Shown: piece by piece, positions 1-62,069 of the stretch
How positions within the stretch are numbered: position 1 is the first letter of the stretch
Layout: each line of letters opens with the position of its first letter
Assembly (NCBI GenBank): GCA_000996205.1
Contig: LBYO01000004.1
Coordinates: 4,051-68,050 of the forward strand
From: Parcubacteria group bacterium GW2011_GWA1_40_21
GTDB lineage: Bacteria; Patescibacteriota; Minisyncoccia; Phycocordibacterales; GWA1-40-21
Reading direction: 5' to 3'
Length of the DNA: 64,000 bases
The notes under the pieces: model-generated
Told to the model about the DNA's origin: nothing
The model's input: only the letters and a program-made list of their open reading frames with translations
The model's database searches: none
Made by a program: the position numbers and the translations under genes

Positions 1-981
1 GCGATCATTTGAGATAAGCCAGCCGTTAAGGTTGATTTCAAAAATTCCTTGATTCCATATTTCCACCGAATCGCCGGAAACATTTGAAATAACGACTGAC
101 GGATTCACCACTTTTACGCTTGTTCTGGAAACCGCGGAAACATCGGAGAGATACGCATTCAACACGACAGCATAATCTCCAGCAAATTTGTAAATATGCG
201 AAACTTTCTTGCCTTCCGCGGCGGAGCCGTCGCCGAAAGACCAGACGAACCTCACGCCCTGCCCTTCTGACTCTTTAGGAATCACGGCTTCCCCGCTAAA
301 GGCTATGGGAGCGCCGGAATAAGCGAGGCGGGCGCGGCCGGAGCTTGCCTCAAAGCGCGCGGAAGATTTTGAGGACGAGCTCAAATCTTCCGGACTGGAA
401 TGAGTGGAAATAAAAGATGGAGAAGTCTCAACACTTGCGATTTCTGAAGGAGGCGCGGACTGGGATTGGCCTGAAGAACTTTCGGAAGAAGATGATGAGC
501 TTCCGCCCGAACCGCCTGAATAATTTGAGTCAATAGTTATAATGTGAGGCGAAAGTTCTTGGATATATTTATATTCCGAGGACGCTTCATCTTTCATCTT
601 TACTTTGATCTTGTAATCACCATCGGACACTACCACCCCCCTGCTCATCTTTGTGTCGCTTGGCTTACCATACCACGGCTTTATAACTGAAGAAGTGTAG
701 GAATTACTTGTTGTTGTAAAAAATATCACACTGCTGTCATCGTCGTCGTTGCATTTGCTATCTGTGGTCTTGCATATGTAAATCCTGCTGAATTTTACCA
801 GAACATTGGTATTTATCTCGATATTCACAACATCGCCCCGCGAAGGATTGAGTTTAACACTTTCTTCTTTTCCGTTTAATTTGTAATTGACAACTTTCGG
901 CTCCAGCGTGGCGGAAGCCAATATTGAAAATGAAAATAAGGAGGCAAAAACCAAAGAAGCCCGGATTATTTTGAATTTCAT
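1..981 (-). CDS. secreted PKD-domain protein (partial; C-terminus beyond the window start)
   Basis: Minus-strand frame opens with ATG at 981 (MKFKIIRASLVFASLFSFSILASA, signal-peptide-like). A PKD-like motif 'HIYKFAGDYAVVLNAYLSDVSAV' and Ser-rich low-complexity stretches follow. The frame runs off the window edge, so it is absent from the ORF track. Confidence 0.5.
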   Translation of the reverse strand, partial: MKFKIIRASLVFASLFSFSILASATLEPKVVNYKLNGKEESVKLNPSRGDVVNIEINTNVLVKFSRIYICKTTDSKCNDDDDSSVIFFTTTSNSYTSSVIKPWYGKPSDTKMSRGVVVSDGDYKIKVKMKDEASSEYKYIQELSPHIITIDSNYSGGSGGSSSSSSESSSGQSQSAPPSEIASVETSPSFISTHSSPEDLSSSSKSSARFEASSGRARLAYSGAPIAFSGEAVIPKESEGQGVRFVWSFGDGSAAEGKKVSHIYKFAGDYAVVLNAYLSDVSAVSRTSVKVVNPSVVISNVSGDSVEIWNQGIFEINLNGWLISNDR

Positions 982-2251: not shown

Positions 2252-2340
2252 AAGAATCTTTAAGTATTTTTTACTTTGTAAATTTACGAACTTTCCACTC
2301 TTCCTCTGAAGGAGGATCCTCCACGGGCGGAACAACTTTT

Positions 2341-5300
2341 TTACGGGCAACCTCCTCCCGGCGCGCAGACGACGATATCAATATCATTATCATGGACGAC
2401 GCTGGCGGGAGTAGTCGCGGCGGAGTCCGCGGTCATAGCGACACCGATGGAATTGCCGGTTATCTCGCCGCCCTCAATCACGACAGGAATTTTAGGAGAA
2501 TCCGCCACAACTCCCGCCCCTTCGGCAAATCCGGTGATTGTTGTGTTTTTGATATTCGCCGTCCCGCTATAAATATCAATGCCGTTCGCTTCTCCGTTTT
2601 GAACCAGCAAGTTTGAGATTGTGGAAGTTGAATTGTAAAGACTTATGCCATTGTCTGAAACATTTTCTATCGTTGAACTCGCGATGACAAGCGTTGAGTT
2701 ATAAATAGCGATGCCGTCGCCGTCGTCTATGTTCTCAATCGTCGTTGATGATATTGTTACATTTGAATTATTAGCGGCGTAAATTCCGTCGCCTCCAGAA
2801 ATATTTTTAATGCTGGAATTCGCAATGACAAGAGTGGAATTGTAAATGCCGATACCGTCACTGTCGCCCGCGATATTGCTTACTGTGGTTGAAGAAATAT
2901 TTACCACTGAGCCGCTATAAGCGCCGATGCCGTCGCCGTCGCTTACACCGTTGATTGTCGTTGACGATATATTTATCACCGAACCGTCATAGGCGCCAAT
3001 CGCATCGTCTGTCAGATTTGCAAAATGCGCATTCTCAATGACAACTGAACTTCCGTCGTAGGCGTTAATACCGCCGTCGGTATTCGCAAAATCTGCATTG
3101 CGGATTTCCAACCGCGAATTACTGAGTCCGACATCTTTCGTATTCTCAAAACGAACATAATCAAGAGTGCTTGTCCCTGTCGCGCCGTCAAACCAAAAAC
3201 TTTCGGTCTGATTTCCCGAAAATGAATTGATGATAATCGGATTTTCGGCGGTCCCTCGCGCATCAATAATTCCATTTACATAAAATCCTCCGTTAGCGCG
3301 GTACGAAGAATTTTTATAAATTGAAATTGTGACTCCCGACTCAATAGTAAGCGTGCTTGAGGCGGAAATGGAAATTTCATTGGAAACGACAAAACCGCCA
3401 TCATCGGCTGTAAGCTTTAAGCTATCCGCGATGTCTTGTCCTTTGTTGATGAGAAAACTTACGCTGTTCTTCGCGCCGGGGGTGCCTCCGATCGGGTTGC
3501 TATTAGCATCGGCGCCGTTGGAAATAAAACCGAGGTTCGTTCCCCAGTTGAGAGAGTCAGCGCCGGATTCTTTTGACCCGTATCGTTCCATTGTTTTTCT
3601 GCTTGAACTGCTGGTATTATTTCCCGCCACCCACGCGCCGGTTGGAGTTTGGTCAAATATCGCGGATAAGTAAGAAAGAATCAGCTCTTCCCCGCCGTTC
3701 CCCAACGCCCACTCTGATGCGCCGTTGCCGTAAGCGACGGTGGTGGAATCGGCAATTATCGTATTTGCCCTCCGTTCAAGGATGAGATATTCTCGCGGCG
3801 CGATTGAGCCCTGAAGGGCGATTCGGGGAGCGCCATCTTTTGATTCAATCGCCCATTGCGACAGACTGATCGTATGTCCAGTGTTGTTTTTCAGCTCCAG
3901 CCATTCGTCGTAAGAGGAAGCGGCCGTCCCCATCCATGCGATTTCGTTGATGGCAATCGGAATCGTGGCGACTGAAATTGTTTTGGTGCTCGTCGCGCTT
4001 TTCCGGCCGCTTGCGCCGACCGCCGTGACATCAAATGTATAATCGGAAAAATCAGGAGCGGTTATGTCAATAAATGTTTCCGCGATTGTCGCATGCTCGT
4101 CGTTTTTGTTTATCGCATAGTAAGAAGCGCCGGCAACCGGCGCCCATTCAAAATGCATTGCCGTCGTGGCGAGAAGACAGCTGTCAGTCGCTAGAGAGTC
4201 GGCGCATTGAGGCGCGCTTAATGCCGGCGCGGATAATTCTTCGGGAGTGACGGATTCATTTTCTGTTTTTTTGATTTCAATTTTTTCAACCGCCACGAGC
4301 GGCGGCGACGAACCTACTCCGTAAATTCGCCGTCCCACAAAAACAAGTTTGACCGGCGAACTTTTTTCCGCCATTGCTTTAACCTCCGTCTTTGATACGA
4401 AGGAATTTCCCGCTGGATCGGCGGATGGAAACGGCAAAGACGGCGAGATGGCTGATTGCTTGTTTAAAGTGGAAACAGCAACGGCGACAATTTTATTTTT
4501 GGATGTTGCCGCGCCGGTCGGAATTGGAGGAGCCGGCAATCCTTGGTTCGCATTGTTTACCGCCGCGCCGCTTCTCCCAGCCAAATTTGCCGCCCCGCTC
4601 GTCAACGATTTGGCGGCGGCGGTTAGCGAAGAAGCGGTTGCGAGGGCGGTTTGAGCAACGGTTTTTGCCGCCGCCATTCCGGTGTTGTATGTCCAAACGA
4701 CCACTTTCGCGCTAGCTGTTCCAACGAGCGCGACCGCATCACTGCCCGCAGTCGCCGCAGGATCGGCGACAGCGAGAACCGCTCCTTCAATCTTGTGAGC
4801 GACAGTGAGTTCCGGCGGAGATATGCAAGACTTGTCTTCGCTTTGCGAAATATTTTCCGACAGACGGTCAAGTGAAGCCCGAATATCCGAAACGATTTCC
4901 GCGCCGCGGTATTTGAGATAAATATCTTTGAAATTATGCCCAGCGGGGTCATCGCCGTTTTGCAATTCAATATGGGTATTGGGCGGCATAATTTTTTTGA
5001 ACGGCGCGCGCCCGACTACGCCGGCAATGACCTTGTCCGTGTCGGAAGTGAGCCACTTCCCTCCTCCAGCCACGCGACCGGACGGAGTGGCAACGCTGTA
5101 GACGCCGATTGATTCCGTCGGAACGCCGCCTTGTTTTCCGGCCACGGTATCGTAAAAACTGTTGGCATAAAAATTGCCCTGTGAATGGGCAACAAGGAGA
5201 AGCTTTTGAGTTTTGACCTTTTCGCTGGCGGACTTCAGCATCTCTACAAGGTCGTAATCCTCCACCGTCTCATTATCAAAAATCTTCTGATAAACCGCCA

Positions 5301-5580
5301 TCAAAATGTCGCCCACCCCCGCGAGGTGCGAGGGGTTGTGAAGAAAATCAACGGTGATAGGTTGGCTATTGAAAGTGGGAGGTAATCTTTTCTTTAACTC
5401 ATCTTTGTTTTTCTTTGCATTAATCTCGTCAGTAAAAATCCCATTTATTGTAAAAATTGAGTAGCCGACAGGAGAACAAATTTGACTGTCTGATTGAGCA
5501 AAAATTGAAAACGGAAAAAGAAATATGAACGCAGTCAATATAATTTGATAGTTTTTAAAAAGATATTTCATAAAACTCAA
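2341..5580 (-). CDS. large secreted multidomain protein: lipase-like alpha/beta hydrolase + LTD + right-handed beta-helix repeats
   Basis: 1079 aa with a signal peptide (ILTAFIFLFPFSIFAQS). 'LLVAHSQGNFYA' is a GxSxG-type nucleophile elbow. 'INEIAWMGTAASSYDEWLELKNNTGHTISLSQWAI' is LTD-like. ~22-aa repeats (NxxFANxTDDAIGAYDGSxxxI...) are typical of parallel beta-helix (pectate-lyase-like) folds. Confidence 0.7.
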   Translation of the reverse strand: MSFMKYLFKNYQIILTAFIFLFPFSIFAQSDSQICSPVGYSIFTINGIFTDEINAKKNKDELKKRLPPTFNSQPITVDFLHNPSHLAGVGDILMAVYQKIFDNETVEDYDLVEMLKSASEKVKTQKLLLVAHSQGNFYANSFYDTVAGKQGGVPTESIGVYSVATPSGRVAGGGKWLTSDTDKVIAGVVGRAPFKKIMPPNTHIELQNGDDPAGHNFKDIYLKYRGAEIVSDIRASLDRLSENISQSEDKSCISPPELTVAHKIEGAVLAVADPAATAGSDAVALVGTASAKVVVWTYNTGMAAAKTVAQTALATASSLTAAAKSLTSGAANLAGRSGAAVNNANQGLPAPPIPTGAATSKNKIVAVAVSTLNKQSAISPSLPFPSADPAGNSFVSKTEVKAMAEKSSPVKLVFVGRRIYGVGSSPPLVAVEKIEIKKTENESVTPEELSAPALSAPQCADSLATDSCLLATTAMHFEWAPVAGASYYAINKNDEHATIAETFIDITAPDFSDYTFDVTAVGASGRKSATSTKTISVATIPIAINEIAWMGTAASSYDEWLELKNNTGHTISLSQWAIESKDGAPRIALQGSIAPREYLILERRANTIIADSTTVAYGNGASEWALGNGGEELILSYLSAIFDQTPTGAWVAGNNTSSSSRKTMERYGSKESGADSLNWGTNLGFISNGADANSNPIGGTPGAKNSVSFLINKGQDIADSLKLTADDGGFVVSNEISISASSTLTIESGVTISIYKNSSYRANGGFYVNGIIDARGTAENPIIINSFSGNQTESFWFDGATGTSTLDYVRFENTKDVGLSNSRLEIRNADFANTDGGINAYDGSSVVIENAHFANLTDDAIGAYDGSVINISSTTINGVSDGDGIGAYSGSVVNISSTTVSNIAGDSDGIGIYNSTLVIANSSIKNISGGDGIYAANNSNVTISSTTIENIDDGDGIAIYNSTLVIASSTIENVSDNGISLYNSTSTISNLLVQNGEANGIDIYSGTANIKNTTITGFAEGAGVVADSPKIPVVIEGGEITGNSIGVAMTADSAATTPASVVHDNDIDIVVCAPGGGCP

Positions 5581-8697: not shown

Positions 8698-8722
8698 TCT
8701 GTGGGTATCAGATACCCACAGA
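8698..8722. promoter_or_regulatory. 25-bp perfect palindrome tctgtgggtatcagatacccacaga (family F)
   Basis: Perfect inverted repeat. Related copies lie at 21415-21441 and inside the 60-bp palindrome at 38184-38243. Confidence 0.4.
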
Positions 8723-10813: not shown

Positions 10814-11736
10814 AATTTTTAATGCTAATTTTCTTTATAATTTCTTTTCAGCTTACTTATAAAACTAATAATTTTAGAAAAGAAATTATTTTTGGCTAAA
10901 ACATTTTTAAAATGTTCGCCTGAACGCGATTGATTCCAACGACTTCGCGACCTGACTTAACTACTTAACTGACTGTTTAAAACGATTGGAAACTTTTTAC
11001 AGTTCCCTTTCGCGTTCTATCACCAAACCAGCTATCTTATATTTTTGCGGGCATTTATTTGCCGGCAAGATCGACACAAGATTGGCTGGCTTAGCTAACT
11101 AAATTTGATCTGACAATCTGCCATTGGCTAACAACAATCCGAAATAAGACTTTCAGAAAAACTAAAATTCTCTATTTAATTTTCAACGACCTTATTCTTA
11201 ACTTTCTTACTGAAAAATTTACTTACTTTTTTATTCCGTGCTTTGATAATTACTTTAAAAAATAATTATCAATCGTAAGTATAATCCCTATCTAATAGTT
11301 CTGCAAAATGAAATCTGTGGATAACTGCCGAATCGGCTTTTTAAGCCTTGTTTTCAGCCTTTGAAGCCGTATTTTGACAGAATTATCCATCAGTTCATAA
11401 TAATTGCAAAAATATGAAGAAAAGTCAATCGGCAGAAGGTTTTAGGTGGTAGGTGGTAGGGATTAGGTTGTGGGTGGTAGGTTGTAGGTGGTAGGTTTTT
11501 AGCTTCTTAGTGAAGAGGTTAGGAAGATAGAAAAATAGAAAATTTTCGTCACCTCTGTCATTCCCGTGAAGACGGGAATCTAGGGTATTTCTTGCTGACT
11601 CTGGATTCCCGCCGGAGCCTGCCCTCCGTGAAGACGGTGAGGCGGGAATGACAGAAGGAACTAAATAACCTACCGTTCCATCTTTTCCGTCCTACAACCT
11701 ACTACCTAAAACCTACAACCTAGTCCTCACTGTCCT

Positions 11737-12597
11737 TTACGAAGCCAGAGAATACTTGCTCCATCTTCTTTCGCCTTCTTTCTTAAGGACACCTTTATCA
11801 ACCAAACTTAACAGCTCTCTTTGAATCGTCTTCTCACTGCAATCCGAAACTATACTTGAAACATCTTTTACGCTAATTTCTTTAGTCTTTTTCAAGAGAT
11901 TTATTATAACTTCATACCTTTTATTTTTGTCCTTAATAGTATGTCCTTTAATAAAGGACATACTCACCTTTTCTTCTTTATTATTGTCCTTTATCGGGAA
12001 ATGTCCTTTAAGTGAATTTGCTTCAAGAGCAGTCTCCTTGCCTGAATTTTGTTCAATCGTTTTTCTAATGTCCTTTTCATTTAAAATGGTGTCTGTCTGC
12101 GCCAATTTGCTGCGGCTGTCGGAATAATCTTCGGACGTTTCAAAAAAATTTTTTGATAACAGAAACTTGGAGTTCAAACCTCTTTCTTTTAATTCAACCA
12201 ATTCAACGATTCTTTCAATCTCGAACTTTATAATTTCGCAATTCATAGGAGAAAAGATTCCTGAAATATTCGCGGCTTCAAGCAAAGAAATAATCTCAAA
12301 AGAGGCGGAGATGAAATTATTCATCGCGTCGGCGCGATAGCGATGTCCTTGATTGGAGGATAAATTTATACTATAAGACAACAGGCGGGTTGAGGTCTCT
12401 CTCATCTTCCACCTGATCGGCTCATTGTCCGATAGAAAACCGGTGATTAGATAAATTGCCGAGACCAGTCTTTCTGTCTTTTTGAAGATGAAAGCAACCT
12501 GCGTGTCATTTTGAAAAATACTCACAGTCTTCAAATTAAGCTTGCTGTAGCTTGCTTGATTTTCTATCTCTTTATTTTTATTGTTTTTATCATCCAT
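11737..12597 (-). CDS. hypothetical protein with a C-terminal winged-helix DNA-binding domain
   Basis: 286 aa. The C-terminal 'ISVKDVSSIVSDCSEKTIQRELLSLVDKGVLKKEGERRWSKYSL' is DeoR/MarR-like wHTH. Confidence 0.45.
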   Translation of the reverse strand: MDDKNNKNKEIENQASYSKLNLKTVSIFQNDTQVAFIFKKTERLVSAIYLITGFLSDNEPIRWKMRETSTRLLSYSINLSSNQGHRYRADAMNNFISASFEIISLLEAANISGIFSPMNCEIIKFEIERIVELVELKERGLNSKFLLSKNFFETSEDYSDSRSKLAQTDTILNEKDIRKTIEQNSGKETALEANSLKGHFPIKDNNKEEKVSMSFIKGHTIKDKNKRYEVIINLLKKTKEISVKDVSSIVSDCSEKTIQRELLSLVDKGVLKKEGERRWSKYSLAS

Positions 12598-19146: not shown

Positions 19147-19968
19147 CTAGAACCTAATCCCAAACACTCTCAAACTGTTTTTCAAAATTTGTTCTCTTGT
19201 TTTATCAAACTCTTCTCCGCGGATTTGAGCGATTTTTCTAACGACTTCCGCGACATATAAGGGCTCGTTTCTCTTCCCCCTGTGAGGAACAGGCGCAACC
19301 AATGGAGAATCGGTTTCCGCCATTATCATATCCAGCGGCGCGTTTTTTATCACTTCATCATAATCTCTGGCGAAAGTGATCACACCGGTGAAAGAAAGCG
19401 TGAAGCCGAGGTCAAGAAATTTTTTTGCAGTTTCCCAACTGCCCGCGAAAAAATGCATATTCCCGCGGAGTTTTGAGTCTCGCGCCGCGGAATACGAACG
19501 CAGAATTTCCAAAAGGTCGGCATAAGCATTGCGACAATGAATCATAAGAGGTTTATCCAATTCTAGAGCCAACTCTATCTGCATTTCAAAAATCTTTTTC
19601 TGTCTTTGCTTTTCACTTTCCACTTTTGACTTTTGACTTGCTTGATTATTTTCGTCTAAACGAAAATAATCAAGCCCGCACTCTCCTACCGCCACGACTT
19701 TAGGATTCGTGAATAATTTTTTGTAAACCGCCGCGTCAAAATCTTCGTTCCCGTCGTCCGTCGGATGAAGTCCGGCGGAAGAAAAAATGCCATCGTTAGC
19801 CGCGGCGTCTTTCGCGGCTTTTTTTGAATTTTTAAAATCAGTACCGACATCAATCGCCCAAATATTTTTTTCCTTCATTCGCCCTATCACCGCTTCCCTA
19901 TCTGCGTCAAAATCGGGAAAGCTTATATGTGAATGAATATCTATGTATTCCGGCATAATCATAGTCAA
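19147..19968 (-). CDS. tatD: TatD-family metal-dependent hydrolase
   Basis: 'IDIHSHI', 'AVGECGLDY', 'MIHCR', 'HFFAG' and 'ETDSPL' are TatD motifs. It carries a low-complexity insertion QASQKSKVESEKQRQKK encoded by a heptamer repeat. Confidence 0.8.
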   Translation of the reverse strand: MTMIMPEYIDIHSHISFPDFDADREAVIGRMKEKNIWAIDVGTDFKNSKKAAKDAAANDGIFSSAGLHPTDDGNEDFDAAVYKKLFTNPKVVAVGECGLDYFRLDENNQASQKSKVESEKQRQKKIFEMQIELALELDKPLMIHCRNAYADLLEILRSYSAARDSKLRGNMHFFAGSWETAKKFLDLGFTLSFTGVITFARDYDEVIKNAPLDMIMAETDSPLVAPVPHRGKRNEPLYVAEVVRKIAQIRGEEFDKTREQILKNSLRVFGIRF

Positions 19969-21414: not shown

Positions 21415-21441
21415 TTCTGTGGGTATCTGATACCCACAGAA
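21415..21441. promoter_or_regulatory. 27-bp perfect palindrome ttctgtgggtatctgatacccacagaa (family F)
   Basis: Perfect inverted repeat in the metG / transporter intergenic gap. Confidence 0.4.
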
Positions 21442-25424: not shown

Positions 25425-26783
25425 TTATTTTAAGCTGTTTTTTATGAAACTGGATAATTCACCTGTCTTTACTCTCTCCTGTTTGCCTGTATCCCTGTCG
25501 CGGACAGTGACGGTGTCATTTTCCAAGGTGTCAAAGTCTATCGTCACGCAAAACGGCGTGCCGATTTCGTCTTGGCGGCGGTAGCGTTTACCGATGTTGC
25601 CGTTGTCGTCAAAAACTATCGGGCGGATTTCTTTTTTTAATTCACTGAAAATAATTTGAGCTTTTTTCACCAGCTCCGGTTTATTTTTAAGCAGAGGGAA
25701 AACAGCAACTTTCACAGGCGCAACTGTTGGTTTGAATTTCAGGAAAATTCTTTTTTCACCGCCCATTTCATCTTCCGTGTAAACCTCGCAAAGAATAGCG
25801 AGAATCATTCTATCCAAACCGAATGAAGGCTCAATGCAGTGAGGAACAAATCTATCTTTCGTTTCTTCATCATAATATGATAAGTCAGCGCCACTCTTCC
25901 CTATATGAGCAGACAAATCAAAATCAGTGCGATACGCCAAACCAAGAAGCTCTTTTCTGCCGAAAGGATAATCAAATTCAAAATCTATGGTTCTTTTGGA
26001 ATAATGCGCTCGGTCTTCCGCCGAGACTTCAAGCTCATGGATGCTGTCTTTGTCAAGTCCGATATCCGCAAGCCAATCTAAAATCTCCGTTCTAAAACTT
26101 TCAAAATATTTTTCCCACTCGCTTTCTCTCGTGAAATATTCTATTTCCATCTGCTCAAATTCTCTAGCGCGGAAGAGAAAATCTCTTGGAGAGATTTCAT
26201 TCCTGAAAGCCTTGCCGATTTGAGCCATACCGAACGGCAATCTGGGATGGAAAGAATCCATCACATTCTTGAAATTAACAAACATTCCTTGCGCAGTTTC
26301 CGGACGGAGATATGACACGGAACCTTTGTCCTCCACTGGACCGACATTGGTCTTAAACATCATATTGAACATAATCGGAGAAAACCAATTTTCTGCACTA
26401 CCACACTTTTCACATTTTGGAGGAACAAAAACATAAGAGATGGAAGGCATTCCCTTTTTCATATTCTGAAAATGATCCGGTGGAAAGCCTATTTGATCAG
26501 CCCTGTATTGAGAGTGGCATTTACTACACTCAACAAGCGGGTCGGAAAATCCCGCGATGTGCCCCGACGCTTCCCAAACTTTTGCATTCATAAGAATCGC
26601 CGCGTCTATTCCATACATATCGTCTCGCTCTTCAACAAACTTTTTCCACCACGAATTTTTTATGTTATTTTTGAGCGACAAACCAAAAGACCCGTAGTCC
26701 CATGCTCCGGAAAGACCGCCGTAAATTTCCGAGCCGGGATAAATAAAGCCGCGCCTTTTGCAAAGCGATATTATTTTTTCCAT
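25425..26783 (-). CDS. glyQS: glycyl-tRNA synthetase (alpha2 type)
   Basis: 'MEKIISLCKRRGFIYPGSEIYGGLSGAWDYGSFG' is the canonical dimeric GlyRS N-terminus, and the class II motifs are present. The longest ORF extends to 26825. Confidence 0.85.
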   Translation of the reverse strand: MEKIISLCKRRGFIYPGSEIYGGLSGAWDYGSFGLSLKNNIKNSWWKKFVEERDDMYGIDAAILMNAKVWEASGHIAGFSDPLVECSKCHSQYRADQIGFPPDHFQNMKKGMPSISYVFVPPKCEKCGSAENWFSPIMFNMMFKTNVGPVEDKGSVSYLRPETAQGMFVNFKNVMDSFHPRLPFGMAQIGKAFRNEISPRDFLFRAREFEQMEIEYFTRESEWEKYFESFRTEILDWLADIGLDKDSIHELEVSAEDRAHYSKRTIDFEFDYPFGRKELLGLAYRTDFDLSAHIGKSGADLSYYDEETKDRFVPHCIEPSFGLDRMILAILCEVYTEDEMGGEKRIFLKFKPTVAPVKVAVFPLLKNKPELVKKAQIIFSELKKEIRPIVFDDNGNIGKRYRRQDEIGTPFCVTIDFDTLENDTVTVRDRDTGKQERVKTGELSSFIKNSLK

Positions 26784-26852
26784 TTTTCCGCCTTCGGCGG
26801 TCTCTTTTTTCTTTTTGATTTCCATAATTGTTGAATAATAGACAAAAGAAGG

Positions 26853-31188: not shown

Positions 31189-34100
31189 TTACGCTTCTAT
31201 CTTGGCTTTTATCACAAAGCCGTCGGTGGAGATTTCCTGTCCGTCTTCCACAACGGCGTTGAATTCCAGTTTTTCTATGCCTGCTGATTTTTTGATTTCC
31301 TCGGCGAATTTTTCCATAAATTCTCTGGCATGGATTTCAGCTTGAACATACAAAATTATTTTCTGGCTGGTATTAAGACCGGCTTTCTTTCTCAAATCTT
31401 GAAGACCGCGAATCAAATCTCTCAAACTACCCTCTTCTTTGAGCTCGGGCGATATTTCCGTATCCAACTCAACCTCGCCTAAAATTTTCTCATCAAAAAT
31501 AATCTCTTTGACATTCAGCTCATCTTTGATCAAATCCAACATTTCTTTCTCCACTTTATGGACTTTATAACTTTTGACTTTTAACTTTTTTAACGCCTGT
31601 CTCACTTTTATATTCGCCTTTGCTCTAGCCTCCAACCCCAAAGAAACAATTCTCCTAACCTCCTCCATATCCTCAATTAAACTTTCGACTTTCGACTTTC
31701 GACTTTCGACTACTTTTACCCATTCTTCCAAATGAACGCTCTCTTTATCCTTTCCTTTGCCGTTCAATTTTTGGTACAAATATTCCGCCAAAAAAGGAGT
31801 GAATGGCGCCATAATTTTTGACAGTTCGGTCAAAACATACTTCATCGTGGCAAGCGCGAATTGTTTGTCTTTATAGTCATCTCCCTTTACCCTTTCTCTT
31901 GATCTGCGGACATACCAAGTGGAAAATTCATTGATAAAATCTTTGATCGGGCGGCCAGATTTGACGGTATTGTAATTTTCAAGCCCCTCCGTCACTTCAT
32001 TTATAAGAATATTGAGCTTGGCGAGAATCCATCCATCAAGAACATTTTCACTGTCTTCGCATTTCGTCTTGCCGTCATACTCGCCTTGATAAAGTTCAAA
32101 AAAATTGAATGTGTTAAGAAGAATATTTATCACTTTATTGTGAGCGTCCTTGATTTCCTCATCCGCAAATTTTATGTCTTCCGCCTGCATTATCGGACTG
32201 GTCATAAGATAATAACGCAAAGCATCCGCTCCGTACTTGTCCATATTCAGCATCGGGTCGGTGTAATTGCCTTTGGACTTGGACATTTTGCTCCCGTCTT
32301 CGGCTAAAATTGTTCCGGTGGTAATGACATTTTTGAAACTTGCATCGTCAAATAAGATGCCCGAAATGGTGTGCATATAGTAAAACCATGTTCTTGTTTG
32401 AGCCACATATTCGGTCACAAAATCACCCGACGGAAAACGGCTGCCGAGTTCTTTTTCATTTTCAAACGGATAATGATATTCGGCAAACGGCATCGCACCA
32501 GATTCAAACCATCCGTCAATAACTTCCGGCACTCTTTTCGTTTCGCCGAGACAGTCTTCACCACTGCAAACCAGATCAACTTCATCTATATAAGGCCTGT
32601 GCAAATCAAGCTCGTAATTTTCATTGTGCGGAAGCGGAACGAAGTCCAGTTTTCTTATCTCCGCGTTTTCAATAAAAAATTCTCCGTTTCCCCGCATAAG
32701 AAGCGCCTCTTTCGCATTCATCCCGAATGATCCGGCGAACAAAAGCCATGCAGGAGAGTCGTGAGTAACAATCAAAATATTTTTATTGTTGTGCCGTTTT
32801 TCAATGTCGTAAATAAAATCGGCGGTTCTTTTTTTAATATCGGAGTAATTTTCCCCCTGCGGAGTATTTTTTATAAATCGTTCTTCAAACGAAGTAAAAT
32901 AGTCGGTGTATGCCGATATAGATTTTCCATCAAATGTTCCCGCGTTCAATTCTCCGACTCTATTTTCAAGAATAATGTCAGATGGCTCAATTTGGAGCTT
33001 CCGTGCGATAATTTCCGCAGTTTCTTTTGTCCTCACAAAAGGCGAGCTGAAGATGATGTCAATTTTTTCAACTATCAAATCGTCCCCCGCTTTCGCCGCC
33101 TGCTCTCTGCCTTTCTCCGTCAAATGACTTGAATTTTTAGAATCGGAACTTATGAAAGCTTTTACATTGTTATCCGCTTCTCCGTGTCGAACCACAAAAT
33201 ATTTATTGCCGGATTTTTTTGTTTTTTTCTTTAATTCATCCACAGAACCGACAAGTTCAATTTTTCCGCATTTCTCGCATTTCCAAATCGGCAGAGGTGA
33301 GGCCCAATAGCGATTGCGGGAAATATTCCAATCCGGAGCGCTTTCTATATTATTCAGAAATCTGCCGTGTTTTAGGTGGTCTGGAAACCAATTTATTTTT
33401 TCATTAAGCTCCTTCAGGCGATTTTTCACTTTTTGGATGTTGATAAACCACGAAGAAAGCGCGCTGTAATAAAGCGGCGTTTCGCAACGATGGCAATGCG
33501 GATAGGAGTGAGTATGCGCCTGTTTGGCGAAAATCAATCCTCTTTTTTCCAAATCTTCTTTGATGTATTTCTCTCCTTTCTTCAAATAAAAACCTTGGAT
33601 AAATTCCGGCGCTTCTTTGTTGAAATGACCGCTTTGGTCTAAAAGCGGAATTGTCGGCAAATCGTATTTTATGCCGATATTATAATCGTCTTCCCCATGC
33701 ATCGGAGCGATGTGGACGATGCCGGTTCCGTCTTCCGTGGTCACGAAATCAGCCGAAACGACATAATGCGATTTTTTATTGAAATTTTTTACCGCCGGAA
33801 TTTCATAAAGTGGTTCGTATTCAAGTCCGACAAGTTTTTCACCGGAAAATTCACTTATTATTTCATAAGGTTCCGACAAAATACCGAGTCTTTCTTTCGC
33901 CAATATTAGATTTTCTCTGTCTTCAGTTTTTTCCGCCTGAGGCGGATCCGCCTCAGGCGGAAGATTTAATCCGTCAGCTGACGGATTAGATTTTAGATTA
34001 AGCTTGCAATAAATCAGCTCCTGATTTATTGCAAGCGCAACATTGCCCGACAATGTCCACGGCGTAGTCGTCCAAGCCAAAAGATAAGTATTTTCCGGCA

Positions 34101-34773
34101 AGTTGTGTTTTTTCGGATTTTTAACTTTAAACTTCACTATCACCGCTTCTTCCGTCACCGTTTTATAACTGTTATCCATCGCCACTTCCGCTTTGGCCAA
34201 AGGAGTCTCGCATCTCGGGCAATACATCAAAACCTTCCGACCTTCATAGAGCAAATCTTTTTTGTGGATTTCTTTTAACGCCCACCAAACGCTTTCAATG
34301 TAAGAATTGTCCATCGTCATATAGGAATTATCAAATTCCACCCAGCGGCCGATTCTCTCCACATAATTTTTCCAGTCGTGGGCAGTTTCTAAAACAGCGG
34401 AACGGCAAGTCTCGTTGAACTTTCCAACCCCCATCGCTTCAATTTCTTTTTTGCTCTTGAGCCCGAGCCTTTTTTCAATCATATTTTCAATCGGCAAGCC
34501 GTGGCAATCCCAGCCCCACCTTCGGCGAACATGATACCCCCGCATTGTCTTATAGCGAGGAATCACATCCTTAGCAACGGAAGAAAGCAAACTGCCGTAA
34601 TGAGGCAGACCTGTCGCAAAAGGCGGTCCATCATAAAAGACAAACTCGCCTTTCGGTGAATCCTTTGCCAAAGTTTTTTCAAAAATTTTATTTTCTTTCC
34701 AAAAACGGAGAGTTTCTTCCTCCCTTTTAGCCGTTTCGCTTTTGTTGTCTTTTTCCTTGTCGTTATTGGTCAT
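31189..34773 (-). CDS. ileS: isoleucyl-tRNA synthetase with an embedded histidine-phosphatase (PGAM-like) domain
   Basis: Carries 'PPFATGLPHYGSLL' (HIGH), 'WTTTPWTLSGN' (editing CP1), 'KMSKSKGN' and a zinc knuckle 'IWKCEKCGK'. Residues ~516-722 are 'YFVVRHGEADNN…FSSPFVRTKETAEII…ENRVGELNAGTFDG…ILIVTHDSPAWLL', a complete histidine-phosphatase core placed before 'LDLHRPYIDE'. Confidence 0.9.
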   Translation of the reverse strand: MTNNDKEKDNKSETAKREEETLRFWKENKIFEKTLAKDSPKGEFVFYDGPPFATGLPHYGSLLSSVAKDVIPRYKTMRGYHVRRRWGWDCHGLPIENMIEKRLGLKSKKEIEAMGVGKFNETCRSAVLETAHDWKNYVERIGRWVEFDNSYMTMDNSYIESVWWALKEIHKKDLLYEGRKVLMYCPRCETPLAKAEVAMDNSYKTVTEEAVIVKFKVKNPKKHNLPENTYLLAWTTTPWTLSGNVALAINQELIYCKLNLKSNPSADGLNLPPEADPPQAEKTEDRENLILAKERLGILSEPYEIISEFSGEKLVGLEYEPLYEIPAVKNFNKKSHYVVSADFVTTEDGTGIVHIAPMHGEDDYNIGIKYDLPTIPLLDQSGHFNKEAPEFIQGFYLKKGEKYIKEDLEKRGLIFAKQAHTHSYPHCHRCETPLYYSALSSWFINIQKVKNRLKELNEKINWFPDHLKHGRFLNNIESAPDWNISRNRYWASPLPIWKCEKCGKIELVGSVDELKKKTKKSGNKYFVVRHGEADNNVKAFISSDSKNSSHLTEKGREQAAKAGDDLIVEKIDIIFSSPFVRTKETAEIIARKLQIEPSDIILENRVGELNAGTFDGKSISAYTDYFTSFEERFIKNTPQGENYSDIKKRTADFIYDIEKRHNNKNILIVTHDSPAWLLFAGSFGMNAKEALLMRGNGEFFIENAEIRKLDFVPLPHNENYELDLHRPYIDEVDLVCSGEDCLGETKRVPEVIDGWFESGAMPFAEYHYPFENEKELGSRFPSGDFVTEYVAQTRTWFYYMHTISGILFDDASFKNVITTGTILAEDGSKMSKSKGNYTDPMLNMDKYGADALRYYLMTSPIMQAEDIKFADEEIKDAHNKVINILLNTFNFFELYQGEYDGKTKCEDSENVLDGWILAKLNILINEVTEGLENYNTVKSGRPIKDFINEFSTWYVRRSRERVKGDDYKDKQFALATMKYVLTELSKIMAPFTPFLAEYLYQKLNGKGKDKESVHLEEWVKVVESRKSKVESLIEDMEEVRRIVSLGLEARAKANIKVRQALKKLKVKSYKVHKVEKEMLDLIKDELNVKEIIFDEKILGEVELDTEISPELKEEGSLRDLIRGLQDLRKKAGLNTSQKIILYVQAEIHAREFMEKFAEEIKKSAGIEKLEFNAVVEDGQEISTDGFVIKAKIEA
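33933..34036. repeat. three consecutive perfect palindromes inside ileS coding sequence
   Basis: ccgcctgaggcggatccgcctcaggcgg (33933-33960), aatccgtcagctgacggatt (33968-33987) and gcttgcaataaatcagctcctgatttattgcaagc (34002-34036). Together they encode …INQELIYCKLNLKSNPSADGLNLPPEADPPQAEKTEDR…. Confidence 0.7.
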
Positions 34774-34829
34774 ATTTATTCAGAGAATACCACAGTTTAT
34801 CATTTTTCCATCGCTTTTCAAAAAAATTT

Positions 34830-34860
34830 CCCCACTTGGAAACTTAGTTTCCAAGTGGGG
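34830..34860. terminator. 31-bp perfect palindrome ccccacttggaaacttagtttccaagtgggg + A/T runs
   Basis: Identical to the element at 6283-6311. Followed by a second hairpin (aacgcattggt…accaatgcgtt) at 34869-34917, upstream of ileS. Confidence 0.5.
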
Positions 34861-34940
34861 AAAAGAAAAACGCATTGGTCTCTTCAGGATATTTAATCCT
34901 AAAAAAACCAATGCGTTGATTTGTCCGTAAAAAATACTGC

Positions 34941-38183: not shown

Positions 38184-38243
38184 GATTCCGTGGGTATCTG
38201 ATATCCACAGACCGTCTGTGGATATCAGATACCCACGGAATCT
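38184..38243. promoter_or_regulatory. 60-bp perfect palindrome in the divergent tmk / dCMP-deaminase intergenic region
   Basis: gattccgtgggtatctgatatccacagacg | cgtctgtggatatcagatacccacggaatc. Each arm itself contains the family-F core gtgggtatctgata. Confidence 0.6.
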
Positions 38244-41296: not shown

Positions 41297-41408
41297 ATTT
41301 TTAATTAGGTGGTAGGTGGTAGGTTGTAGGTTTATAAGAAAGAAAAAAAACAGATTCTTCCTACAACCTAATACCTACCACCTACAACCTTCCTTTAAGT
41401 GATTATAT

Positions 41409-41951: not shown

Positions 41952-42062
41952 TTTTTTATTAGGTTGTAGGTGTTAGGTTGTAGGTTGTAGGTTCCAGATT
42001 TAAGAGATTAATTTTCTTATCTTAAACCTAATACCTACAAACTAAAACCTTCTTCTGATTGA

Positions 42063-42239: not shown

Positions 42240-42410
42240 ATCTCTTATAATTAAATCTCCCTTATTAAAAACCGCCCCTTGGGGCTACCTGCATAGTAGC
42301 TCATTTGTGTGGGAAAAGTCAACCGGAATTAGGTTGTAGGTGGTAGATAGTAGGTTTTAGGAAAGATAAATATTATCTTAAGTTTCTGACTGAAACCTAC
42401 AATCCGAAGC

Positions 42411-52125: not shown

Positions 52126-52304
52126 GTTTGTTGGGAATTAGGTTTTAGGTTTTAGGTTTTAGGTGGTAGGTTGTAGGAAGAGAAAGAGGTTGTAGGTTTA
52201 AGAAATTTGGATTTGATTAGAAATTAGGTCAATAGAAATTTAATCGCCTTTTCTTCTTTTCCCTTCTTCCCTACCACCTACCACCTAAAACCCACAACCT
52301 TCTT

Positions 52305-53810: not shown

Positions 53811-53860
53811 TTAAAAATTATAGACCATACGGCAAACAAAGAGCAAATGAGTTGAAGAAG

Positions 53861-53924
53861 GTGGTAGGTGGTAGGTGGTAGGTGGTAGGTGGTAGGTGGT
53901 AGGTGGTAGGTGGTAGGTGGTAGG
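53861..53924. repeat. heptamer microsatellite (ggtaggt)x9
   Basis: A perfect tandem array ~50 bp upstream of the holB start. It is related to the family-B motif aggttgtaggtggtagg. Confidence 0.85.
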
Positions 53925-54706: not shown

Positions 54707-54878
54707 CAAAGTTAGTCCACTAAATTTGTGACCAGGAAATGAGCAAACTGCTTTGCTCGTGTGAGAAATTGATGAATTGAAAATTTATCTCCATAAAACC
54801 TAACACCTACAACCTACAACCTAATCTGTTGGATTTATTCTCATTTTTGATATAGAATTACAAAGTTAAATAAACAAT

Positions 54879-61102: not shown

Positions 61103-61181
61103 TGTTTTAATTGTTTACTTGGTCTTTACTTTATGGACTTTTCCTCCGAAGGAGGATCCGCCTAAGGCGGAATAGACTTCT

Positions 61182-62069
61182 TTATAAACTTATTCTTCCC
61201 CATCTGGCAAAAATTCCGGCAGGCAACAGTCTGCCGCTCCCAGACTCCTCAATGGCAAGCTCCCCTTTCTCAATCGCTCCGCCGAATTTTTTCACGAGTG
61301 GCGACAGATTATTTTCATAAGCTATCGCCGAATACCCCGCCGAGTAGCCGTTTATCAAAAAGAAAATCGGCGTATCGGACAAAACATCTTCGCAGAGTTT
61401 CATAAGACCGAGAAAATCATCTTCTATCTTCCATAATTCTTTTTTCGGCCCATGGCCGAAAGCCGGCGGGTCCATCACGATTCCATTGTAGCGAACTCCT
61501 CTTCTTATTTCCCTTTTTACGAACTCGCGCGCGTCATCAAGTATCCATCGGACAGGCTTGTCCGCGAGTCCCGAAAGGACAGCATTCTCCTTTGCCCAAG
61601 TGATGGCGGATTTTGACCCGTCAATATGAGCAACTTCGGCACCGGCGCTAAGCGCCGCGAGCGTGGCTCCTCCAGTGTAGCCGAAAAGATTGAGAACTGA
61701 TACAGGCCGATTCAAATTTGCCGATTTTATTTTATCAATTATCCACCTCCAATTCGGCTCCTGTTCCGGAAATAATCCGGTATGCTTGAAAGCGGTCAGC
61801 TTTATGAAAAAGCTCAGCCCGCCTAATTCTATTTTCCATTTTTCGGGAACATTCGGCTTTTTCTTCCATCCTGCCTTAGCTCCGCTATGGGCGAAAACAG
61901 CATCGGCTTTCTGCCATTCAGCAATCGGCAAGCGCTTGTTCCACAACGCCTGCGGATCAGGTCTAGACAAGATAAATTTGCCGTATCTTTCCAGCTTTTC
62001 TCCTTCTCCGCTATCCAATAATTCATAATCCCCGCCAGCCAAAGTCTTAAGTATTTTCAATTCTTCCAT
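61182..62069 (-). CDS. class I SAM-dependent RNA methyltransferase (RlmI/YccW-like)
   Basis: 'VLNLFGYTGGATLAALSAGA' (motif I) and 'IVMDPPAFG' (motif IV). Confidence 0.7.
   Translation of the reverse strand: MEELKILKTLAGGDYELLDSGEGEKLERYGKFILSRPDPQALWNKRLPIAEWQKADAVFAHSGAKAGWKKKPNVPEKWKIELGGLSFFIKLTAFKHTGLFPEQEPNWRWIIDKIKSANLNRPVSVLNLFGYTGGATLAALSAGAEVAHIDGSKSAITWAKENAVLSGLADKPVRWILDDAREFVKREIRRGVRYNGIVMDPPAFGHGPKKELWKIEDDFLGLMKLCEDVLSDTPIFFLINGYSAGYSAIAYENNLSPLVKKFGGAIEKGELAIEESGSGRLLPAGIFARWGRISL

What the first reader, a model, noticed from the sequence alone, without database searches (positions are those of the whole stretch)
33933..34036. Palindromic repeat elements inserted in-frame within ileS coding sequence (Rickettsia-RPE-like behaviour)
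Three back-to-back perfect DNA palindromes (28, 20 and 35 bp) lie inside the ileS editing-domain region. They encode ~28 extra residues (NLKSNPSADGLNLPPEADPPQAEKTEDR) that are absent from reference IleRS at this position.

The 28-bp unit ccgcctNaggcgg-at-ccgcctNaggcgg belongs to a family also seen intergenically at 61148-61175 (cctccgaaggaggatccgcctaaggcgg), with a degenerate copy at 2299-2326.

This looks like a selfish palindromic element that has inserted into an essential gene without breaking the frame. That behaviour is known in Rickettsia but is not generally described for this kind of genome.
Basis: seen in the sequence. Interest (0 to 1): 0.6.

Follow-up and report, generated by a model that had tools for sequence, protein, structure and literature searches.

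The report
In-frame palindromic mini-elements inside ileS
Two of the three hairpin-forming palindromes inside this uncultured bacterium's essential isoleucyl-tRNA synthetase gene are copies of tiny dispersed DNA elements that insert without breaking the reading frame; one is an exactly 30-base element that also sits in rpoB, rpoC, dnaE and other essential genes across many uncultured phyla, and the third palindrome is older and built from the gene's own codons.

Summary
ileS (31189-34773, minus strand; Parcubacteria/CPR) carries three near-adjacent perfect palindromes of 32, 22 and 35 bp. They are three different things.

(1) 33932-33961 is an exact 30-bp (10-codon) gain relative to the nearest relatives, at a T|A junction with no target duplication. 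It belongs to a double-hairpin family, TCCGCC-NNN-GGCGGA-TCCGCC-NNN-GGCGGA. The window holds two more copies (61142-61171 and 2302-2331). One capped scan found at least 123 copies in at least 118 MAG loci from CPR, Omnitrophota, PVC, Ignavibacteriota and other groups. Half of them lie inside long ORFs, 52 of 60 in one frame (SAxGGSAxGG). Host genes include rpoB, rpoC, dnaE, dnaG, topA, gyrA and several aaRS genes.

(2) The 16-bp core at 33970-33985, with its AAATCT heptamer flanks, is a second, lineage-restricted element. It recurs in frame (NLKSNPSADG) in leuS-like and secA-like ORFs and at two other ileS sites in relatives.

(3) 34002-34036 is not an insertion. It encodes aligned residues LAINQELIYCKL, is shared with relatives in various states of decay, and shows one loop inversion. 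This fits intra-palindrome template switching.

The insert forms a low-confidence loop between two strands in CP1. The mobilising enzyme is unknown. No published description of the 30-mer was found; intragenic REP dimers and Rickettsia RPEs are the closest known elements.

The parts
31189..34773 (-). ileS coding sequence (1194 aa). It is intact: a HIGH-type motif and KMSKS are present, and it carries a clade-wide inserted His_Phos_1 domain.
33932..33961 (.). Palindrome 1: a 30-bp double-hairpin element, TCCGCCTGAGGCGGA+TCCGCCTCAGGCGGA. It is an exact 10-codon insertion encoding PPEADPPQAE (residues 272-281), sits between AAATCT and AAAAAAC, and has no target duplication.
   Evidence: absent in L127/L001/L002; family membership
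33970..33985 (.). Palindrome 2 core, TCCGTCAGCTGACGGA (perfect palindrome 33967-33988). It is the GC-rich core of a second, lineage-restricted element and encodes NPSADG.
33962..34001 (-). AAATCT-type heptamer flanks plus the palindrome-2 core, encoding LNLKSNPSADGLNL. Relatives have the heptamer array alone here (LNLKS[KQ]ISNLKN).
34002..34036 (.). Palindrome 3: 16-nt arms and a 3-nt loop, encoding aligned residues L247-L258 (LAINQELIYCKL). It is not an insertion. It is shared with subclade relatives (16/16, 14/16, 14/16, 13/16, 10/16 pairs), and the loop is inverted in L001.
61142..61171 (.). Second copy of the 30-bp family (TCCTCCGAAGGAGGA+TCCGCCTAAGGCGGA). It is intergenic, 10 nt 3' of the stop of a methyltransferase-like ORF (61182..62069) and upstream of a pseudouridine synthase gene.
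2302..2331 (.). Third, more degenerate copy of the 30-bp family (TCCTCTGAAGGAGGA+TCCTCCACGGGCGGA), 9 nt 3' of the stop of the 1079-aa beta-helix ORF 2341..5580.
26788..26800 (.). Possible single unit (CCGCCTTCGGCGG) at the 5' end of ORF 25425..26825. The match is weak.
   Evidence: 13.4 bits, E about 0.01

Best explanation
The cluster records three separate events at a permissive surface loop of the IleRS CP1 (editing) domain.

(a) In the ancestor of a Parcubacteria subclade, a palindrome (34002-34036) formed from the gene's own codons. The likely route is intra-strand template switching that 'perfected' a short pre-existing inverted repeat (GCAATA...TATTGC). An AAATCT-type heptamer array was added next to it.

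(b) A lineage-restricted element is present within that array. It consists of AAATCT heptamers around the 16-bp core TCCGTCAGCTGACGGA.

(c) Most recently, a 30-bp double-hairpin element (two 15-nt hairpins, TCCGCC-NNN-GGCGGA) was inserted at a TCT|AAA junction inside (b). It is exactly ten codons long and made no target-site duplication. It is translated as PPEADPPQAE.

The 30-mer belongs to a widespread family of non-autonomous elements. Because its length is a multiple of three, and it is stop-free in most frames on both strands, it can persist inside essential genes. Selection then filters for loops and for the benign Ser/Ala/Gly frame.

What is shown: the insertions, their boundaries, their dispersal and their frame bias.

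What is inferred: how they move. By analogy with REP/REPIN and IS200/IS605, I favour trans-mobilisation of the folded single strand by a hairpin-specific enzyme of the HUH/Y1-transposase (RAYT-like) type. That sub-claim alone has a probability of about 0.3.
For: Boundaries. The nearest relatives L127 and L001 read AAATCT|AAAAAATGAAGAC where the window reads AAATCT|30 bp|AAAAAACTGAAGAC. None of the 119 other homologues carries the peptide.

Family in the window. There are three copies with compensatory stem changes.

Family elsewhere:
- The hits span genomes of 33-70% GC, including megabase contigs of Ignavibacteriota.
- Stem positions that the pattern left free are about 95% conserved, while loops vary and are uncorrelated between the two units.
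- 106 copies are doublets and there are no longer arrays.

Coding context:
- 60 of 123 copies lie in long open frames, 52 of those 60 in the frame SAxGGSAxGG.
- 19 of 20 tested host ORFs have strong Pfam matches. They include RpoB, RpoC, DnaE, DnaG (twice), TopA, GyrA, UvrB, Mfd, AspRS, CysRS, PheT, RNR and DnaJ.
- RF1 and RpoB show 6-8-aa gaps against solved structures at the element.

Independent insertion. Two AspRS genes each carry the 30 bp at a different site where the other is empty, at TTT|GAA with no duplication. The flank consensus is tTT|core|AAa.

Palindrome 2. The same DNA and peptide recur in frame in a leuS-like ORF, a secA-like ORF and at two other ileS sites.

Palindrome 3. 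It encodes aligned residues and is present in relatives with decay, two compensatory changes at one pair and a GAG/CTC loop inversion. A sister case in tatD is made of the GLDYFR codons plus their reverse complement and is absent in L005.

Structure. Residues 263-284 have pLDDT below 50 and lie between strands 254-260 and 288-292. About 25 residues are extra relative to 1ILE.
Against: - No transposase or other partner gene was found. None lay between paired copies, and no family was enriched among 150 neighbouring ORFs.
- Mobility is inferred from distribution and from filled/empty comparisons between species. It was not seen as a polymorphism within a population.
- The census pattern demanded near-perfect stems, so stem invariance is partly an effect of ascertainment.
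- Taxon labels of MAGs can be wrong.
- The element is depleted in ORFs relative to random positions (49% against 72%). It is therefore tolerated in genes rather than favoured there.
- For palindrome 2, gain in this lineage and loss in the relatives cannot be told apart.
- For palindrome 3, six sequences cannot separate selection for a hairpin from repeated template switching.
- Translation of the insert is assumed from the frame bias and was not observed.
Confidence: 0.78

Rival explanations
1. All three palindromes arose locally, by template switching or snap-back synthesis during replication of this gene. On this view the similarity to other loci is coincidental and nothing is mobile.
For: This genome does make local palindromes from host codons: palindrome 3, tatD 19640-19675 and 11938-11964. 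Palindrome 2 could formally be read as 12 nt of inverted duplication plus 4 substitutions.
Against: Palindrome 1 has no template in its flanks and matches at least 123 copies elsewhere. Palindrome 2, with its flanks, recurs in other genes and at other ileS sites with the same peptide.
Confidence: 0.04
2. The hairpins are a selected cis-acting structure in the ileS mRNA or DNA. Possible roles include a translational pause at the Rossmann/CP1 boundary, an RNase III site or a protein-binding site. On this view they are not selfish insertions.
For: The predicted stability is very strong. Palindrome 3 is conserved in a subclade, with two compensatory changes that alter the amino acid (K to E, K to Q).
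Against: Palindromes 1 and 2 are absent from the closest relatives. Palindrome 3 is decaying in the nearest relative (13/16) and absent from the 82%-identical P0002. No Rfam family matches. The same 30-mer sits in unrelated genes and in intergenic DNA.
Confidence: 0.08
3. The 30-mer is removed before or after translation, in the manner of an intron or intein, so IleRS never contains the ten residues.
For: The element forms a compact, defined structure and is exactly excisable on paper.
Against: 52 of 60 intragenic copies use one reading frame, and copies with stop-forming loops avoid that frame: the ileS copy has TGA/TCA loops and is read in another frame. That pattern is expected only if the element is translated. 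There are no ribozyme or intein features, and 30 nt is too small for either.
Confidence: 0.03
4. The palindromes are an assembly or sequencing artefact, or a synthetic contaminant.
For: All census hits are MAGs, and the centre of the element is a BamHI site.
Against: An identical ileS sequence is deposited under a separate record, an ENA scaffold (L006); whether the two records come from different reads was not determined. Hits come from many studies and assemblers, including long-read megabase contigs. The loops and flanks vary, and there is a strong frame bias inside genuine Pfam-matching genes.
Confidence: 0.01

Closest known systems
Intragenic REP elements and REP dimers (GTAG- and CGTC-tagged superfamilies; REPIN/RAYT systems)
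   Same: Both are short GC-rich stem-loops of 20-40 bp that occur mostly as head-to-head dimers. Both are often found just 3' of genes, and some copies are inserted in frame in replication, repair and aaRS genes, adding 20-30 aa (PMC3733652). The presumed non-autonomous, hairpin-dependent spread also matches.
   Different: There is no GTAG or CGTC tag: the flanks are T-rich and A-rich. The two units abut with no spacer, giving exactly 30 bp. No RAYT was seen nearby. REP families are specific to a species or genus, whereas these stems are nearly identical across phyla. About half of the detected copies are intragenic.
Rickettsia palindromic elements (RPE)
   Same: Both are palindromic repeats inserted in frame in unrelated essential genes, translated, and placed where the fold tolerates them (PMC10969869).
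   Different: RPEs are about 100-150 bp, form ten Rickettsia-specific families, and end in CGTC according to PMC3733652. The elements here are 30 bp, or a 16-bp core with heptamer flanks, occur in other phyla and carry no such tag.
IS200/IS605-type single-strand transposition (and MITEs derived from it)
   Same: Both insert without target duplication, next to a short preferred flank, and depend on hairpins at both ends. The two 15-nt hairpins look like a minimal left-end/right-end pair.
   Different: No TnpA was found, there is no room for guide sequences, and the element is symmetric with a symmetric flank preference (T's on the 5' side, A's on the 3' side). The mechanism is not demonstrated.
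GC-rich palindromic clusters of yeast mitochondria (optional in-frame inserts in VAR1) and fungal mitochondrial double-hairpin elements (from my own knowledge, not checked here)
   Same: Both are small GC-rich palindromes that spread in AT-rich DNA, prefer AT-rich targets, and are sometimes carried in frame in a protein gene.
   Different: They occur in a different compartment and have different sequences. No relationship was tested.
Quasipalindrome correction / template-switch mutation (Ripley model; from my own knowledge)
   Same: This matches palindrome 3 and the tatD palindrome. The arms are perfect and made of adjacent native sequence, one relative shows a loop inversion, and the substitutions are clustered.
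   Different: It does not explain palindromes 1 and 2, which have dispersed copies.
PARCELs (palindromic amphipathic repeat coding elements)
   Same: Both are palindromic coding repeats that are horizontally distributed among diverse microbes (PMC2996958; only the title and the start of the abstract were seen).
   Different: PARCELs are described there as intragenic tandem repeats in repeat and surface proteins of Mollicutes and other microbes (abstract start). They are not 30-bp single inserts in housekeeping enzymes. The paper was not read.

Membership tests
Rickettsia palindromic elements (RPE) | Length of about 100-150 bp | tested here: not met
   The net insert is 30 bp. The palindrome-2 element is a 16-bp core within a composite of about 57 bp.
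Rickettsia palindromic elements (RPE) | In-frame insertion in unrelated protein genes, translated | tested here: met
   The copy in ileS is in frame. Elsewhere 60 of 123 copies are in long ORFs, 52 of 60 in one frame. Translation is inferred from the frame bias.
Rickettsia palindromic elements (RPE) | CGTC tetranucleotide at one end / sequence similarity to RPE-1..10 | tested here: not met
   There is no CGTC at either end, and the flank consensus is tTT|core|AAa. Direct comparison with RPE sequences was not run.
REP / REPIN (GTAG or CGTC superfamilies) | Short stem-loop unit (stem 5-13 bp) occurring mainly as head-to-head dimers | tested here: met
   The stems are 6 bp and the loops 3 nt. There are 106 doublets and no arrays longer than 2. 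Most apparent singles have a variant partner unit.
REP / REPIN (GTAG or CGTC superfamilies) | GTAG or CGTC tag outside the stem | tested here: not met
REP / REPIN (GTAG or CGTC superfamilies) | Linked RAYT (Y1 transposase) gene flanked by the repeats (REPtron) | tested here: inconclusive
   No transposase family appears among the most frequent Pfam families of 150 neighbouring ORFs. Only 25 of 133 families were listed, and only about 8 kb per locus and 64 kb of this genome were visible.
REP / REPIN (GTAG or CGTC superfamilies) | Family confined to a species or genus | tested here: not met
   Near-identical stems occur in loci labelled as more than 10 phylum-level groups, over 33-70% GC.
IS200/IS605-like hairpin transposition | No target-site duplication; seamless filled/empty sites | tested here: met
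   This holds for ileS against L127/L001 and for two aspS sites.
IS200/IS605-like hairpin transposition | Specific tetra- or pentanucleotide 5' of the insertion, and a TnpA (HUH/Y1) enzyme | tested here: inconclusive
   Position -2 is T in 98 of 119 copies and position +2 is A in 94 of 119, but the preference is symmetric. No enzyme was identified.
Template-switch (quasipalindrome-correction) product - palindrome 3 only | Arms made of adjacent native sequence, no length change, loop inversion among relatives | tested here: met
   The palindrome covers aligned residues and has the same length as orthologues. The loop is GAG in the window and L127 and CTC in L001, and the arms are 16/16 to 10/16 paired in relatives.
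Described structured RNA family (Rfam) | Match at gathering threshold | tested here: not met
   Only four tRNAs matched in the window.

The most novel reading that the evidence does not exclude
The 30-bp double hairpin may be an undescribed mobile micro-element that spans many phyla. On this reading it is exactly ten codons long, is symmetric and leaves no target duplication. A hairpin-specific enzyme with conserved specificity would move it in trans. It would have colonised core information-processing genes (rpoB, rpoC, dnaE, dnaG, gyrA, topA, aaRS genes, prfA) across CPR, Omnitrophota, PVC, Ignavibacteriota and other uncultured lineages that share groundwater and sediment habitats. That would imply either frequent cross-phylum transfer of a 30-bp parasite or a shared host activity that generates it.
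Probability: 0.45. Interest if true: 0.85.

Novelty: new variant of a known kind. Interest (0 to 1): 0.72.

Why it matters
Selfish palindromes that live inside protein genes have been treated as a speciality of Rickettsia and of a few REP-bearing Proteobacteria and PVC species. In those cases each family is confined to one species or genus.

Here a much smaller element, exactly ten codons long, keeps almost the same stem sequence from CPR bacteria to Ignavibacteriota. It sits in the most conserved genes that cells have.

If it is mobile, several things follow:
- It is one of the smallest transposable units known.
- It is a recurrent source of Gly/Ser-rich loop insertions in essential enzymes.
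- It is a confounder for alignments, phylogenomic markers and gene calling in MAGs.
- It is a handle for finding the enzyme that recognises it.

The locus also gives a clean natural example of palindromes being created and reshaped by template switching inside a coding sequence, in genomes that evidently tolerate long perfect palindromes.

Tried and rejected
- Rfam at gathering thresholds over the whole window found only tRNAs.
- BLAST of a consensus 36-mer against 50,697 cultured phage genomes and 72,556 plasmids gave only partial chance-level matches. IMG/VR gave 2 contigs out of 2.9 million, so the element is not phage-borne in general.
- Eight literature searches were run, including exact sequence strings and the peptide GGSASGG. 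None found a description of the 30-mer.
- Target-site duplication or flanking direct repeats: there is only a weak excess (repeats of at least 10 bp in 3.4% of copies against 0.5% of controls). It comes from a few copies embedded in heptamer arrays, so it is not a general feature.
- Guide-like covariation between loops and flanks: none is convincing.
- Loop 2 being the reverse complement of loop 1, which would suggest a snap-back origin: 20 observed against 16.6 expected, so rejected.
- An autonomous element between paired copies: in L012 the interval holds ordinary genes, and the 30-mer is part of a 185-nt intergenic repeat.
- Transposase enrichment next to copies: none was seen. GIY-YIG matched 3 of 150 ORFs, which I did not compare with a genome-wide background.
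- A bias for positions just 3' of stop codons, as for the two intergenic window copies: 20 of 68 non-ORF copies lie within 100 nt of a stop. No control was run, so this is not clearly different from chance.
- A covariance model found no further full copies in the window, and none in 96 kb from relatives beyond the known L003 copy.
- My first reading of palindrome 2 as a purely local 12-nt inverted duplication was abandoned after copies turned up in other genes.
Full report
**Observation**

The window region 33931-34036 lies on the antisense strand of a 1194-aa ORF (31189..34773, minus strand). This ORF is an intact isoleucyl-tRNA synthetase. The homologues that carry source names are labelled Parcubacteria, Patescibacteria and similar CPR groups. 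An identical protein and DNA are also deposited under a separate ENA scaffold record (L006).

The repeat finder and my own scan give three palindromes:
- 33931-33962: 32 bp, perfect, made of two 15-nt self-complementary units.
- 33967-33988: 22 bp perfect, extending to 34 bp at 88%.
- 34002-34036: 16-nt arms with a 3-nt loop.

In the whole window there are 17 perfect palindromes with arms of at least 11 nt, against 0.2 expected from dinucleotide shuffles. Three of the 17 sit within these 106 bp. The 161-nt segment is predicted to form three strong hairpins as RNA (-72.5 kcal/mol, z = -8.9) and as DNA (z = -11.3).

**What is extra in the protein**

An alignment of 60 orthologues shows that most read ...IDYCL-VE-QDKEN-YILAK. 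The window protein reads ...LIYCK-LNLKSNPSADGLNLPPEADPPQAEKTEDREN-LILAK.

Against T. thermophilus IleRS (1ILE), query residues 258-291 face residues 251-259. That is about 25 extra residues inside the CP1/editing region. An AlphaFold2 model built on 60 homologues gives pLDDT below 50 for residues 263-284, between strands 254-260 and 288-292. This is a disordered loop on a beta-hairpin.

A subclade (P0017, P0081, P0009/10/32, P0029, P0018) already has a shorter insert at this site, LNLKS[KQ]ISNLKN.

**DNA-level dissection**

I fetched the orthologous DNA. The nearest relatives in this region are L127/P0081 and L001/P0017, at 76-79% nucleotide identity. They differ from the window by a net 12 codons.

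The right-hand difference is unambiguous. The relatives read AAATCT|AAAAAATGAAGACAAAGAAAAT. The window reads AAATCT|TCCGCCTGAGGCGGATCCGCCTCAGGCGGA|AAAAAACTGAAGACAGAGAAAAT. This is an exact 30-bp gain at a T|A junction with no duplication, and it adds PPEADPPQAE.

The middle palindrome replaces AATCTC of the relatives with TCCGTCAGCTGACGGATT, a net gain of 12 nt.

The third palindrome is not an insertion. It encodes A-L-A-I-N-Q-E-L-I-Y-C-K-L at the same alignment positions as ALAVKEEIDYCL in other orthologues. It is present in the relatives in these states:
- L001: 16/16 pairs, but with the loop inverted (CTC instead of GAG).
- L004: 14/16 pairs, with a compensatory T>G / A>C change.
- L002: 14/16 pairs, with a compensatory T>C / A>G change at the same pair.
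- L127: 13/16 pairs.
- L005: 10/16 pairs.
- L003/P0002: 3/16 pairs, even though its IleRS is 82% identical overall.

**The 30-mer is a dispersed family**

They are 61142-61171 and 2302-2331, each 27/32 identical to the ileS copy. They show the paired change CCGCC/GGCGG to CCTCC/GGAGG, and both lie 9-10 nt after the stop codon of a minus-strand gene. A further copy lies after recO in the close relative L003.

I wrote a pattern that fits all four copies: TCCKCNNNAGGMGGATCCNNCNNNGGCGGA. It carries about 42 bits, so fewer than a few chance hits are expected in 596 Gb.

By record title, 60 loci are CPR lineages of many classes. The other 58 are labelled Omnitrophota, Planctomycetes, Kiritimatiellae, Lentisphaerae, Verrucomicrobiota, Elusimicrobia, Ignavibacteriota, Chloroflexota, Melainabacteria, Firmicutes, 'Gammaproteobacteria' or unclassified. 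They include 1.6-Mb long-read contigs that cannot be CPR. Locus GC content ranges from 33% to 70%.

The stem positions that the pattern left free are almost invariant. The 3-nt loops vary: the first is purine-rich and the second pyrimidine-rich. The loops of the two units are uncorrelated, with 20 reverse-complement pairs against 16.6 expected. Copies are doublets (106), never longer arrays. Most 'single' units have a partner with covarying stems, such as CCAGCC/GGCTGG, CCCGCC/GGCGGG or CCCTCC/GGAGGG.

A covariance model built on 34 copies finds only the three known full copies in the window. It also finds one weak single unit at 26788-26800. It finds nothing new in 96 kb from relatives.

**Behaviour in genes**

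Sixty of the 123 copies lie in frames that stay open for at least 40 codons on both sides. Of these, 52 are read as S-A-x-G-G-S-A-x-G-G, usually preceded by F/I/L/V and followed by K/E. For comparison, 72% of random 30-bp windows in the same loci are in such open frames. The element is therefore depleted in genes but far from excluded.

Nineteen of 20 host ORFs tested have strong Pfam matches:
- transcription: RpoB and RpoC;
- replication and topology: DnaE, two DnaG, TopA and GyrA;
- repair: UvrB and Mfd;
- tRNA charging: AspRS, CysRS and PheRS-beta;
- others: class II RNR, DnaJ, an E2 acyltransferase, ArsA, a type I restriction R subunit and GH57.

RF1 and RpoB segments align to solved structures with a 6-8-residue gap exactly at the element.

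Two AspRS genes give reciprocal filled and empty sites. L055 has TTT TTT|30 bp|GAA AAT where L020 has TTT TTT GAA AAG. L020 carries its own copy 30 codons downstream, where L055 is empty.

Across copies, position -2 is T in 98 of 119 and position +2 is A in 94 of 119. The aspS comparison shows that these bases belong to the target, not to the element. The ileS copy has TGA/TCA loops, which would be stop codons in the favoured frame. Consistent with translation, it is read in another frame.

**The middle palindrome is a second element**

The same DNA, AAATCTAA-TCC(G/A)TCAGCTGACGG(A/G)-T(T/C)AAATCT, occurs in L001 inside ileS at a different site. There it lies between the two cysteines of the WKCxKC knuckle and encodes QNLKSNPSADGSNLKS, which other orthologues lack.

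A metagenome scan with TCTAATCCNTCAGCTGACGGNTNAA returned six groundwater contigs:
- a leuS-like ORF, read in another frame as NLIRQLTDK;
- a secA-like ORF (SNPSADGSNLKSQ);
- ileS at the knuckle site;
- ileS at a third, C-terminal site;
- two copies that do not lie in a long ORF.

The core therefore travels with AAATCT-type heptamers. The 30-mer in the window is nested in the right-hand heptamer flank of this element.

Heptamer arrays are a general trait of this genome. They flank the 30-mer in several unrelated genomes (L052, L080-L082, L099, L050). This fits a preference for TCT|AAA junctions, but flanking repeats are not a general feature of the family.

**Palindromes made from host codons**

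tatD (19147..19968) contains a 16-nt-arm palindrome at 19640-19675. It consists of the conserved GLDYFR codons followed by their reverse complement (read as DENNQA), and then an AAGTCAA heptamer array. The tatD of L005 lacks the palindrome and has AAATCT heptamers (SQISNLK) at the same site. A smaller example lies at 11938-11964.

Together with the loop inversion and the uneven decay of palindrome 3, this points to intra-strand template switching that creates and re-perfects palindromes in this lineage. The data cannot exclude selection for a hairpin at palindrome 3, because only one stem pair covaries among six sequences.

**Mechanism**

Three things are shown:
- exact 30-bp gains at T|A(G) junctions without duplication;
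- dispersal across genes and genomes;
- constraint on the stems but not on the loops, a doublet as the unit, and a frame bias implying translation and purifying selection.

The rest is inferred: the element is non-autonomous and is moved as a folded single strand by a hairpin-recognising enzyme. The closest precedents are REP/REPIN mobilised by RAYTs, and IS200/IS605, which inserts without duplication next to a short flank. I put about 0.3 on that class of enzyme.

I found no partner gene. The interval between paired copies in L012 holds ordinary genes. No transposase family stands out among 150 neighbouring ORFs; GIY-YIG matched 3 of 150. The element is essentially absent from cultured phages and plasmids and from IMG/VR.

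**Comparison with what is known**

A 2024 review presents in-frame palindromic inserts as a hallmark of Rickettsia RPEs, which are about 150 bp and form ten families (PMC10969869). Di Nocera et al. 2013 (PMC3733652) had already shown that GTAG- or CGTC-tagged REPs, often as dimers encoding 20-30 aa, lie inside replication, repair and aaRS genes in several Proteobacteria and PVC species.

The present element works like those. It fails their defining tags (no GTAG or CGTC), it is smaller and spacer-less, and it is not confined to a species or genus. No Rfam family matches. No paper in the searchable library describes it, by name, sequence or peptide. That library omits most subscription journals.

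**Verdict**

The third is a different phenomenon. I rate the whole as a new variant of a known kind (in-frame REP/RPE-like palindromic elements). Its unusual features are the exact ten-codon size, the near-identical stems across phyla, and the occupancy of the most conserved genes. These features justify follow-up.

Noticed in passing
window 31189-34773 (IleRS residues about 520-740): This IleRS carries an inserted histidine-phosphatase (His_Phos_1, PF00300) domain with an RHGE motif. The domain sits between the catalytic-core halves. All 120 best homologues in the clade share it.
   Followed up: partly
window 34827-34863 and 6283-6311; L003 84-106; L005 7404-7432: A 37-bp perfect palindrome (TTTCCCCACTTGGAAACTTAGTTTCCAAGTGGGGAAA) followed by a T-run lies 54 nt upstream of the ileS start, so it looks like an intrinsic terminator. 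The same sequence recurs at 6283. Covarying versions sit upstream of ileS in two relatives.
   Followed up: partly
window 8698-8722, 21415-21441, 38184-38242: This is another intergenic palindrome family (TCTGTGGGTATCAGATACCCACAGA). At 38184 it is present as a 59-bp perfect palindrome of two units.
   Followed up: no
window 11443-11496, 11691-11722, 41306-41390, 41960-41993, 42330-42361, 52138-52287, 53859-53924, 54797-54823: Intergenic regions are full of period-7 tandem arrays (TAGGTGG/TAGGTTG and the complement CCTACAA). One is a perfect 9.4-copy AGGTGGT array. They are reminiscent of cyanobacterial STRR heptamers.
   Followed up: no
window 31681-31711 and 31562-31589 (ileS 3' part); 19605-19639 (tatD): Heptamer arrays are translated in frame inside genes. 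(CGAAAGT)x4.4, perfect, gives ESRKSKVES in IleRS. An AAGTCAA array gives SQKSKVESEK in TatD. A relative carries the palindrome-2 element at the IleRS C-terminal site (L132).
   Followed up: partly
window 19640-19675 (tatD) and 11938-11964: Two perfect palindromes are made of conserved host codons plus their reverse complement. In tatD the GLDYFR codons are followed by DENNQA, which is absent from the tatD of L005. These are probable template-switch products.
   Followed up: partly
window 62101-62128; L012 4569-4752 and 6390-6572: TGTCATTCCCGCGCCGGCGGGAATGACA resembles a GTCATTCC...GGAATGAC palindromic repeat that I recall as widespread in environmental genomes. A related motif lies beside the 30-mer inside a 185-nt repeat in a Kiritimatiellae MAG.
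   Followed up: no
L071 and L112 (dnaE): Two DnaE genes from different MAGs carry the 30-mer at the same position, directly after a Q-x-S-L-F motif that looks like the beta-clamp-binding motif. This could be shared ancestry or a hot spot.
   Followed up: no
ileS knuckle site (query residues about 499-503; L127, L004, L001): The gap between the two cysteines of WKCxKC is a second insertion hot spot. P0081 and P0029 carry unrelated low-complexity inserts of about 25 aa there, and P0017 carries the palindrome-2 element.
   Followed up: partly
L008 4732-5124: A small GIY-YIG nuclease ORF lies about 220 bp from a 30-mer copy and next to a variant doublet. GIY-YIG was the most frequent family among ORFs neighbouring the element (3 of 150). 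I did not compare this with a genome-wide background.
   Followed up: partly
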